NCBI GenBank assembly: GCA_030324005.1
Contig: JARDVH010000059.1
Location: 96,158,482 to 96,222,481 of the forward strand
From: Negaprion brevirostris
Taxonomy: Eukaryota
DNA: 64,000 nt
Reading direction: 5' to 3'
In this document: positions 51,595 through 62,510 of the stretch, one piece after another
How positions within the stretch are numbered: the first letter of the stretch is position 1
Layout of the letters: every line of letters begins with the position of its first letter
Notes under the pieces: generated by a model
The model's input: only the letters and a program-made list of their open reading frames with translations
What the model was told of the DNA's origin: nothing
Databases searched by the model: none
Program-made: the position numbers and the translations under genes

Positions 51595-52181
51595 ATGAGT
51601 TTGCATCGCAATCAGCAAATGGGATCAGACCGCGATCTACAGTCCTCTGCATCTTCAGTTAGTTTACCTTCTGTTAAAAAGGCACCAAAGAAACGTCGAC
51701 TTTCACTCGGGTCTTTGTTTCGAAGGAAAAAAGAGTCAAAACGAAAGTCCAGGGACTTGAGTGGCGGAGTTGATGGAATTGCAAGTATTGAAAGCATTCA
51801 TTCAGAACTATGTAATGATAAGAACTCCATTTTGTCAACTTGTGACTCCTCTGAAAGTGCAACTGCATCTGCTGACAAGCAAAATGGAGACTTTCTTGAA
51901 TGCCCTCTGTGCCTTTTGCGTCTGTCTCGAGACAAATTTCCCGAAATTATGACTTGCCCCCACAGGTCATGCGCAGACTGTTTGCGGCAGTACTTGAGGA
52001 TAGAAATCTCTGAAAGTAGAGTCAATATCAGCTGCCCAGAGTGTACAGAACGATTCAATCCCCACGATATCCAATTAATTTTAAATGATGATGTGCTTAT
52101 GGAGAAATATGAGGAGTTTATGCTACGCCGATGGCTGGTGGCAGATCCAGACTGCAGATGGTGCCCTGCTCCAGATTGTGG
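51595..52181 (+). CDS. RNF19A: E3 ubiquitin-protein ligase RNF19A (Dorfin), first coding exon: basic N-terminus, RING1 and start of IBR
   Basis: [35 protein letters not shown]...CPLCLL...[30 protein letters not shown]...RWCPAPDCG closely follows vertebrate RNF19A as I recall it. Donor GG|gtaaga at 52181/52182 (phase 2). Confidence 0.97.
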
Positions 52182-60293: not shown

Positions 60294-60502
60294 TTACGCA
60301 GTGATAGCGTTTGGCTGTGCCAGCTGTCCAAAACTCACTTGTGCCCGTGAAGGATGTGGCACTGAGTTCTGTTACCACTGTAAGCAAATATGGCATCCAA
60401 ATCAGACCTGTGATGCAGCACGTCAACAGAGAGCGCAGAGTTTGCGATTAAGAACAATACGCTCTTCATCAATCAGCTACAGTCAGGAATCTGGTGCAGC
60501 AG
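60294..60502 (+). CDS. RNF19A: RNF19A coding exon: IBR domain and IBR-RING2 linker
   Basis: Acceptor 'tttttattttttcag|T' completes GG+T=Gly, then [69 protein letters not shown]. Donor G|gtacag (phase 1). Confidence 0.96.
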
Positions 60503-62365
60503 GTACAGAAAACTGGACTCTTCGTAGATACGTTCAGGATGAGATTTCGGGAAGAAAGGGGTTACCTGAAATAAACAGCCTCCTGGTCAATCAGATTTTG
60601 CCATCTCGTTCCACAGGTAACCGTTTTCTTGATGGAATCTCCACCTATGGAAATGCTTGCCATCTTTTAGGTTTCCAAAATTGCTGTAGTTTCCCTAATT
60701 GTGCAATGCTATAAATCGATTTTAAAATAAATAGTTAAACAGCTATTAACTGAGCTAAAGGGTTTTTGATGTTGAAATTGCCTGTGAAAGTGTTGTTGGA
60801 GCTTGCCTACTTGTACGTGTTTTGTCTTGCTGGCAGGGAAAAGGAATAATTGTTTCAGATAAGACATTTTGTTTTGTATTGAACTATCATGCTACACAAT
60901 CTCATATCATTTATTTGTAATGTTGTCAATAATATTGTGTAATTTATCTTGCCAGGTACTTGTAAGCTGGCAGAGCCAAGTTTAGAGAGAGTTCCTTTTG
61001 TCCAGAGTTGTCACTTTACAAAATCTATTTATACAAACTGGGCTACAACACACACGTGGATCTAGGGTGATAAAATATAACTGTGGGGCTAACTCCTACT
61101 TTGTGTCGACATTGGGCAGGCACTGTACACCCTGCCTAGTGTCCTTGGCATGGGTTTTGATTTCATTTATAGACAAGTTGTAAGCAGCCATTGGGCGAAT
61201 GGGAAATCAGGTGGCTCTTCAACAGAGCTGACCCAAACAATGGACTAAGGGAGCAGAGGTGATTTTGGATACTTTTGCAGAGCTATAAAGACACTTGAAG
61301 CTCTGTCTGGCACCAGAAAAATCCAAACGGAAATTTGGGTGATTGGGCCACCCCATGTCTTGAATGGATGGCATGTACGTGATGCATTCTCCTGTCATTG
61401 CTACTCAAGTTTACAGAACAGAAATGGGGCATTCAATCCAACTGGCCCATGCAGGCTTCCTCCCACTTCACTTCGTCTTGCACAACCTTGCTTCTCAAAT
61501 TCAACAGTGCTATTCGTCTCAACCGCCCCATGTGATATTAAGTTCCATGTTCTAACTACTCCTGGGTTGAGGCAGTTTTGCTTGAATTCATTACTGGATT
61601 TATTATGAATCTCCTTGTTCTTCAGGCCCCCATGTTACAAGCAGGGCTCTCACTTGCAACAGGCAGACCCTGGGTTTCCCAGGTGAAGTGTGGGCAAAAT
61701 ACTGGTATATGGAATGTGAATGTTGGCAAGTTCAGCCCCACAATCTTTTGGAGCACACCCATCCAGCCGAGACGATGAATAATACGGCTTCTGTGCTTGC
61801 ATGCACCCACGTTGTACTGTTGAACTCCGCCTTGCCTTTGTGGATAAAACATTGCAACATGGGTCATCTTTTGGCACAGTAGAACAATATATACTTGCCA
61901 TTGCCATTTTGGCTTTAATTGATTTTTAGAATTAATTTTCAGGATATTCAGACCTTCTGGCTTGCTGATGTGTGGTGTGATTTGGCTACCTTAATATTGA
62001 ACTTAATAAAGTACTAAAAGCTTTATTTCTATAATGCTGCAAAAGTACTCCATTTAAGGCGTTGCTGTATTTGGGATGTTGAACTATAGCTTAATGGTTT
62101 TTTTAAAGACTATTATGGAGCACTTTTGAAATATTACCAATATATCTTCTGGTAATAACATCAGGAACCAAAACATAAATGACTGAAAGTTGAGGGAACG
62201 TGTTGAAGTTGAAATGCATTTGCTAGGTCTGGCGGTTTGAATTTGCATCCCTGGTTATGCACTGTTTAATTCAGTCTGAAATATATCGATGCTGGGCTAT
62301 TCTGCTAAGCATTTCATATAATTCTTTTAACAAGGTGATTTATCATTGTTTCTCTTTTTTTGCAG

Positions 62366-62510
62366 CAGATGATATTAAACCTTGTCCACGATGTGCAGCA
62401 TACATAATAAAAATGAATGATGGAAGCTGTAATCATATGACTTGTGCAGTATGTGGCTGTGAGTTCTGTTGGCTTTGTATGAAAGAAATATCTGACCTTC
62501 ACTATTTAAG
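62366..62510 (+). CDS. RNF19A: RNF19A coding exon: RING2 (Rcat) including the catalytic Cys of DGSCNHM (62428-62430); CDS continues beyond the window
   Basis: Acceptor 'tctcttttttttgcag|CA' completes G+CA=Ala, then [47 protein letters not shown]. Donor AG|gtaagt. Confidence 0.96.

What the first reader, a model, noticed from the sequence alone, without database searches (positions are those of the whole stretch)
60503..60616. Candidate alternative 5' donor adds an in-frame 38-aa insert to the RNF19A IBR-RING2 linker
Seen: the donor that gives the mammal-like protein is a weak CAG|GTACAG. Exactly 114 nt downstream is a second donor, CAG|GTAACC, in the same phase (1). The intervening sequence is stop-free ([38 protein letters not shown]) and keeps several CpGs, unlike the surrounding intron. 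Splicing from it to 62366 gives ...SGAA-[38 aa]-ADDIKPCP. Established: in RBR ligases (Parkin, HOIP, HHARI) the IBR-RING2 linker positions the catalytic RING2 and takes part in autoinhibition. Inference: this may be a lineage-specific isoform with altered ligase regulation. With uniform codon use, 38 open codons arise by chance about 16% of the time, so the frame-preserving donor is the stronger evidence.
Basis: partly seen in the sequence, partly recalled or inferred. Interest (0 to 1): 0.72.

Follow-up and report, generated by a model that had tools for sequence, protein, structure and literature searches.

The report
Cartilaginous-fish extension of RNF19A linker
Sharks, rays and chimaeras splice the ubiquitin-ligase gene RNF19A at a second site that adds 38 almost unchanging amino acids just before the catalytic domain, a piece not found in the bony vertebrates checked, which likely tunes the enzyme; databases already list it.

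Summary
A second donor 114 nt into the intron extends RNF19A exon 3 by 38 codons. The 60616^62366 joint stands in assembled contigs of 3 of 4 runs laid. The same peptide is in protein records of 16 named sharks, rays and a chimaera, with 34 of 38 positions invariant over 11 species, like the IBR domain. It is absent from the bony-vertebrate records examined, including coelacanth, and from both paralogs in this genome, so it was likely gained by exon extension before about 421 Ma. It looks like the main form rather than a minor one (my run choice is biased that way), and three ray genera have a codon change that should abolish the old donor, making it obligatory. Function is not shown: AlphaFold gives the insert low confidence with two short helices, and RNF19-family linkers vary from 11 to 108 aa. 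It is already in automated annotation; I found no paper on it. A neat, testable lineage variant, not a new kind of system.

The parts
51595..52181 (+). RNF19A coding exon with start Met, RING1 and first part of IBR
   Evidence: ORF list, own-genome protein search, loose ends of contigs match its 3' end
60294..60502 (+). Core of the exon encoding the rest of IBR and the ancestral linker
   Evidence: same exon in tetrapod-type and teleost-type loci L005, L007
60500..60508 (+). Proximal (ancestral) 5' donor CAG|GTACAG, phase 1; gives the mammal-like short protein
   Evidence: donor at the like place in paralogs and bony-vertebrate loci; short protein models in 4 shark species; its joint was not listed in 4 runs
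60503..60616 (+). 114-nt exon extension encoding the 38-aa insert
   Evidence: open frame; covered by contigs in 4 of 4 runs, to 60600 in one and through the joint in three; 34 of 38 residues invariant in 11 species; single copy in the genome
60614..60622 (+). Distal 5' donor CAG|GTAACC, phase 1
   Evidence: joint skipping 1749 nt, GT..AG, in X1, X8, X12; skate-type read-through proteins continue Gly-Asn as here
60617..62365 (+). Intron removed in the long form (1749 nt)
62363..62368 (+). Tandem CAGCAG acceptor (one Ala in or out)
   Evidence: both variants among long-form records and in coelacanth X1/X2
62366..62510 (+). RING2 exon with the catalytic Cys-x-His motif
   Evidence: catalytic role of this Cys is recalled family knowledge

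Best explanation
The 114 nt are an exon extension of RNF19A that is spliced from a distal 5' donor and adds 38 residues, nearly invariant across sharks, rays and a chimaera, right before RING2; it likely arose from intron sequence in the cartilaginous-fish stem and likely works as a short binding segment that tunes ubiquitin transfer to RING2. Steps: (1) shown: the distal joint exists and the peptide is conserved (about 0.97). (2) inferred: gain by donor shift on the chondrichthyan stem, since paralogs, coelacanth, teleost, tetrapod, tunicate and amphioxus records have short linkers (about 0.8). (3) inferred: selection acts on the peptide, not only on the RNA (about 0.8). (4) inferred: the long form is the main one, and is obligatory in Mobula, Hemitrygon and Narcine where Gly1 became Ala, which changes the old G|GT donor to G|C (about 0.75). 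(5) hypothesis: two short helix-prone motifs (about 273-277 and 291-297 in P0003) fold on binding inside the RBR core; my preferred version is that the second one supplies or extends the helix before RING2 that other RBR ligases use to hold donor ubiquitin, which the short form is predicted to lack (about 0.35 for this exact version).
For: Joint 60616^62366 in contigs of 3 of 4 runs from different studies and organisms; the contigs also run on into the flanking exons. Insert in records of 16 named species: 9 sharks, 6 batoids, 1 chimaera. Invariant columns over 11 species: insert 34 of 38, IBR region 75 of 85, RING1 42 of 52, old linker 22 of 30, N-terminus 71 of 98 (Fisher p 0.04), tail 261 of 370 (p 0.013). 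All 5 substitution types seen among 26 long records have BLOSUM62 >= 0, against 109 of 261 possible non-synonymous or stop single-base changes (p about 0.013); no frameshift or stop. Insert-only search: 6 hits among 15 candidates, 4 named chondrichthyan and 2 unnamed records of chimaera and skate type. Of 204 records examined, 182 had a readable junction: 24 carry the insert, 158 do not. Paralogs on C146 and C25 hit a stop after 14 and 17 codons of read-through; tetrapod-type L005 after 4. Chimaera split 421 Ma, shark-ray split 306 Ma (PMC3692497, abstract). Donor ubiquitin binds the helix preceding RING2 in several RBRs (PMC9834252, passages). The short-form model has only a 3-residue helical turn there; the long-form model has helices at 273-277 and 291-297.
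Against: Insert pLDDT is 36-47, so neither helix nor any docking is confident; its alignment rows are nearly identical, so this is weak either way. IBR-RING2 linkers of 100 RNF19-like representatives span 11-108 aa: insertions are tolerated here, and toothed whales have an unrelated 14-aa insert at the same junction. Chondrichthyans evolve slowly (PMC3692497, abstract) and the insert is not significantly more conserved than the old linker (p 0.11) or RING1 (p 0.38). I had no ray or chimaera DNA, so synonymous divergence and the donor loss were read from proteins only. Runs were found with a query containing the insert, and contigs drop rare variants, so dominance of the long form is not measured. 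The runs are only guessed to be RNA and no DNA run was laid as control. No lamprey, hagfish, gar, bichir or lungfish record was identified among those I read.
Confidence: 0.6

Rival explanations
1. The insert is a Parkin-REP-like autoinhibitory element that docks on RING1 and blocks E2 binding, so the long form is a damped ligase and the short form the active one.
For: In Parkin a helix in this same linker binds across the RING1 E2 site using small and aromatic hydrophobic residues including a Trp (PMC3730226, passages). The first motif has a Trp, Tyr and an amphipathic pattern (moment up to 0.52).
Against: No confident packing on RING1 in the full-length model (insert pLDDT under 50). Rays that appear to make only the long form would need a separate release switch. 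No sequence match to Parkin's linker in the PDB search.
Confidence: 0.15
2. The insert is a docking or modification site for an outside partner (substrate, adaptor, kinase) and leaves catalysis unchanged.
For: Low predicted order with short helix-prone motifs fits a fold-on-binding motif; exon-extension gains tend to be disordered (PMC2926785, passages). Family linker is length-tolerant.
Against: No Pfam match and no credible Atlas look-alike (best 0.79), so no motif is named; position directly before RING2 is a catalytically used site in other RBRs (PMC9834252).
Confidence: 0.2
3. The conserved thing is the RNA: the 114 nt are a splicing-control element (competing donors, or a small GT...AG unit with a dual AG|GT site as in recursive splicing or exitron retention), and the peptide is a tolerated passenger.
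For: The 114 nt begin with GT and end in a fairly pyrimidine-rich stretch (14 of 20) plus CAG. No base difference in the insert in the 4 runs laid, against 1-2 in the core exon in 3 of them (close relatives). A tetrapod-type locus has the same 10-nt donor word 56 nt into this intron (4 of 500 shuffles).
Against: All 5 substitution types are chemically conservative. No unusual RNA fold (z -1.07). The tetrapod match is weak under other scorings and controls (19-846 of 1000 shuffles; 49 of 908 other stretches at best).
Confidence: 0.12
4. The extension is ancestral to jawed vertebrates and was lost in bony vertebrates, leaving a relic donor.
For: Donor-like word at +56 in tetrapod-type L005.
Against: Match not robust; none in teleost-type L007; coelacanth records are short-form only; both paralogs, tunicate (30 aa linker) and amphioxus (27 aa) lack it.
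Confidence: 0.1
5. Artefact or neutral cryptic splicing.
For: An open frame with an in-frame donor arises at about 1-3% of positions by chance.
Against: Spliced joint in three studies and 37 of 38 identity between catshark and chimaera.
Confidence: 0.02

Closest known systems
RefSeq/UniRef chondrichthyan RNF19A long isoforms (e.g. XP_038666033.1 Scyliorhinus, XP_062911337.1 Mobula, XP_007899423.1 Callorhinchus)
   Same: Same 38-aa insert at the same junction.
   Different: Automated models only; I found no paper that describes the insert, its range or the donor loss in rays.
Echinoderm Alx1 Domain 2 (PMC5758115, passages)
   Same: Conserved, clade-wide segment proposed to come from intron sequence by exon extension over 400 Ma ago, absent from the paralog, still alternatively spliced with the long form dominant.
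   Different: Transcription factor; function shown by rescue. Here the host is an enzyme core and no function is shown.
IBR-RING2 helix of HOIL-1, RNF216, HOIP, HHARI, Parkin (PMC9834252, passages)
   Same: Same position, directly before RING2; the insert has a helix-prone hydrophobic motif there.
   Different: Those helices are solved and mutationally tested; here the helix is low-confidence and ends about 13 residues before the first RING2 Cys.
Parkin linker helix / REP (PMC3730226, PMC7458406, passages)
   Same: Regulatory element in the IBR-RING2 linker.
   Different: Constitutive in Parkin, docks on RING1; no sequence or predicted structural match shown here.

Membership tests
RBR E3 ligase, RNF19A ortholog | RING1-IBR-RING2 order with catalytic Cys in RING2, followed by two membrane helices | tested here: met
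   Pfam IBR and RING hits; PDB sequence and fold matches are RBR ligases; best protein hits are RNF19A; all exons on one contig; long helices 366-411 and 418-466. Catalytic role of Cys325 is recalled.
Alternative 5' splice-site event | Distal donor used | tested here: met
   Joint in 3 of 4 runs.
Alternative 5' splice-site event | Proximal donor also used in the same species | tested here: inconclusive
   No 60502 joint listed in 4 runs (contigs show presence only); both forms are modelled for Mustelus, Pristiophorus and Stegostoma; one run breaks at 62363, which fits a branch but proves nothing.
De novo exon extension from intron | No homolog of the added segment elsewhere; outgroups and paralogs keep the proximal boundary | tested here: met
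   Cyclostomes and basal ray-finned fishes not identified among records read.
Transposon exonization | Added segment matches a repeat family | tested here: not met
   One match in the own genome at E <= 1; that search skips very common words, and a 420-Ma-old repeat could be unrecognisable.
Donor-ubiquitin-binding IBR-RING2 helix | Helix before RING2 that contacts the ubiquitin Ile44 patch | tested here: inconclusive
   Helix 291-297 predicted at pLDDT under 50; needs structure or mutagenesis.
Parkin-type REP autoinhibitory element | Linker helix docked on the RING1 E2 site | tested here: inconclusive
   No confident placement in the full-length model.
Insert under purifying selection as protein | dN/dS well below 1 across species | not testable with these tools
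   No ray or chimaera DNA could be had; indirect test by substitution type gave p about 0.013.

The most novel reading that the evidence does not exclude
A regulatory helix module born from intron sequence was inserted into the catalytic core of an RBR ligase on the cartilaginous-fish stem, switches the enzyme's ubiquitin-transfer behaviour by donor choice in sharks, and became hard-wired at least twice in rays by loss of the old donor: a living series from optional to obligatory for a de novo enzyme-control element.
Probability: 0.25. Interest if true: 0.65.

Novelty: new variant of a known kind. Interest (0 to 1): 0.42.

Why it matters
RNF19A is among the least understood RBR ligases: no solved RNF19 structure appeared in the PDB sequence search. 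A natural pair of isoforms that differ only by 38 residues at the site other RBRs use to bind donor ubiquitin or to autoinhibit is a ready-made test of how this subfamily works. For evolution, it is a datable case of exon extension into an enzyme core, with species that appear to keep both donors and species that appear to have lost the old one. It does not point to a new pathway, and the sequence is already in public annotation.

Tried and rejected
Run search: 19 holders from 7 studies, no RNA holder listed on record; the RNA label is a guess. Complex prediction of the insert (residues 264-306) with this genome's ubiquitin: no answer, score 0.01 in two runs, alignment not used, partner fold uncertain; neither for nor against binding. 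ESM Atlas look-alikes of the insert: best 0.79, lead level only. Pfam on the insert: 0 families. RNA fold of 60480-60640: z -1.07, 26 of 200 shuffles as good. Metagenome scan: 65 loci, none matching beyond query residue 72, so no chondrichthyan DNA was obtained. Tetrapod relic donor: suggestive in one test (4 of 500), not robust in four scorings; whole-intron blastn printed nothing. Third protein search was crowded by birds and added coelacanth but no basal ray-finned fish or cyclostome among 120 listed of 438. Paper search with chondrichthyan terms listed 25 of 3112 papers, none containing RNF19A, so it was uninformative. The 'exon 2 donor' row was cut at the wrong offset and is not used. Earlier-findings look-ups returned nothing. 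Rejected: repeat origin, retrocopy as source of the joint (one RNF19A locus found in the genome; lower-bound searches), chance frame.

Full report
Observation. The window shows two phase-1 donors 114 nt apart after RNF19A's IBR exon, CAG|GTACAG at 60502/3 and CAG|GTAACC at 60616/7, with an open 38-codon frame between them, and a tandem CAGCAG acceptor at 62363-62368. From the window alone the pattern is only modestly beyond chance: open frame 7683 of 61315 positions, frame plus donor 0.4-2.9% of 58776 positions, four CpGs reached by 5.2% of windows. The gene is single-copy and all its coding exons lie in order on contig C59; the 114 nt have one match in the genome. The sequence points to a shark, by similarity of the protein to catshark and smooth-hound records.

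Is the distal donor used? Nineteen runs from 7 studies hold the stretch; none is on record as RNA. I laid 4 of them. Contigs of three (three organisms, three studies) join 60616 to 62366, skipping 1749 nt with GT..AG ends, and run on into the neighbouring exons; the fourth covers the exon and insert to 60600 and exon 4 in separate contigs. No 60502 joint was listed. Contigs show presence only, the runs were found with a query that includes the insert, and no DNA run was laid, so this proves use of the distal donor but not its share.

How wide is it? A protein search with exon plus insert returned 854 hits among 995 candidates; of the 120 listed, 7 covered 99-100% of the query, at 95-99% identity. 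Cluster members name 16 species with the insert: Scyliorhinus canicula and torazame, Mustelus, Carcharodon, two Chiloscyllium, Rhincodon, Stegostoma, Pristiophorus; Leucoraja, Amblyraja, Pristis, Narcine, Mobula, Hemitrygon; and Callorhinchus (only 15 of 54 members of the largest cluster were listed). Short models were seen for 4 sharks (Heptranchias, Pristiophorus, Mustelus, Stegostoma). For Mobula, Hemitrygon and Callorhinchus the record carries no isoform number and has the insert. Of 204 records examined, 182 had a readable junction: 24 with the insert, 158 without; 22 were unreadable and dropped, two of which are skate-type read-through products that carry the insert. An insert-only search gave 6 hits among 15 candidates, none from outside this group as far as named. 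Coelacanth X1 and X2 are 807 and 806 aa, X2 with the short junction. The two paralogs in this genome, a tetrapod-type locus and a teleost-type locus keep the proximal boundary with no like extension; amphioxus and tunicate linkers are 27 and 30 aa. Parsimony therefore places the gain on the cartilaginous-fish stem, before the chimaera split dated at 421 Ma (PMC3692497, abstract). Cyclostomes and basal ray-finned fishes were not identified among the records read.

Is it under selection? Across 11 species 34 of 38 insert columns are invariant, like the IBR region (75 of 85) and above the N-terminus (71 of 98, p 0.04) and tail (261 of 370, p 0.013), but not significantly above RING1 (42 of 52) or the old linker (22 of 30). 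Catshark and chimaera differ at 1 of 38. The five substitution types among 26 long records (G1A, S16T, I32F, S35T, T38A) are all conservative, against 109 of 261 possible changes (p about 0.013). dN/dS could not be computed. G1A matters twice: codon 1 spans the old donor, and Ala there turns G|GT into G|C, which no canonical donor allows. It is seen in Mobula, Hemitrygon, one unnamed record and Narcine, but not in Pristis or skates. So these rays likely make only the long form; on the usual batoid tree (recalled) that needs two losses or one reversal. This is read from proteins, not DNA.

How might it work? In HOIL-1, RNF216, HOIP, HHARI and Parkin the helix before RING2 binds donor ubiquitin (PMC9834252, passages); in Parkin a helix in the same linker blocks the E2 site (PMC3730226, PMC7458406, passages). 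The AlphaFold model of the short form has a confident helix after IBR (235-255) and only a three-residue turn before RING2. The long form adds helices at 273-277 and 291-297, at pLDDT 36-47; both regions show amphipathic patterns. The fold search returns RBR ligases as top matches and says nothing on the insert. Against a strong structural role, linkers of 100 RNF19-like representatives (of 148 read) span 11-108 aa, and toothed whales carry an unrelated 14-aa insert here. I commit to a fold-on-binding segment that tunes ubiquitin transfer to RING2, most likely by supplying a ubiquitin-contacting helix, but that last step is a hypothesis (about 0.35). Rivals are a REP-like brake, a docking site for an outside partner, and RNA-level constraint; the last gains a little from the acceptor-like end of the 114 nt and from a donor-like word 56 nt into the tetrapod-type intron, but that match is not robust and the RNA has no unusual fold.

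Comparison with what is known. Exon extension is a recognised route to new, mostly disordered segments (PMC2926785, passages), and echinoderm Alx1 Domain 2 is a close precedent with a shown function (PMC5758115, passages). The isoform itself is in RefSeq and UniRef. In the held library I found no paper describing it: RNF19A+RING2+linker 8 papers, RNF19A+shark 5, RNF19A+alternative splicing+isoform 19, RNF19A+autoinhibition+RBR 3, family evolution 15 listed of 20; I saw listings and abstract starts for these, and passages of PMC7658342, which covers RNF19B splicing elsewhere in the gene. Subscription journals are mostly missing from the library, and I read no supplements; genome-paper supplements could list the isoform.

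Verdict. Real, spliced, class-wide and conserved; already annotated by machine, apparently undescribed; function open. New variant of a known kind, interest 0.42.

Noticed in passing
P0128, P0129, P0135 (Stegostoma records): RNF19A models of 1252-1290 aa carry about 450 extra N-terminal residues; their cluster also holds 'sorting nexin-31-like' members, suggesting an SNX31-RNF19A read-through or fused model. Query residues 1-401 have no tblastn match in this window.
   Followed up: partly
L074 (G000:C25:41098300-41105000): A third RNF19-like paralog in this genome reads Cys-Asn-Arg instead of Cys-Asn-His at the RING2 active site; RNF216 is reported active without this His (PMC7458406, passage).
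   Followed up: no
P0010, P0014, P0015, P0017; P0049: Toothed-whale RNF19A X3 models carry an unrelated 14-aa insert at the same junction (likely a cassette exon); a killifish model carries 20 aa that look like a read-through intron end. The junction is a recurrent site of insertion.
   Followed up: no
window 62363-62368: Tandem CAGCAG acceptor; forms with and without one Ala occur in sharks, rays and coelacanth records.
   Followed up: partly
L005, 56 nt after the proximal donor: A tetrapod-type RNF19A intron has the same 10-nt donor word as the shark distal donor, out of frame and after a stop; possibly a relic or a decay-coupled donor, possibly chance.
   Followed up: partly
window 60503-60616: The extension itself starts with GT and ends with a pyrimidine-rich tract and CAG followed by GT, the layout of a dual acceptor-donor site; the short form could also arise by two-step splicing.
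   Followed up: partly
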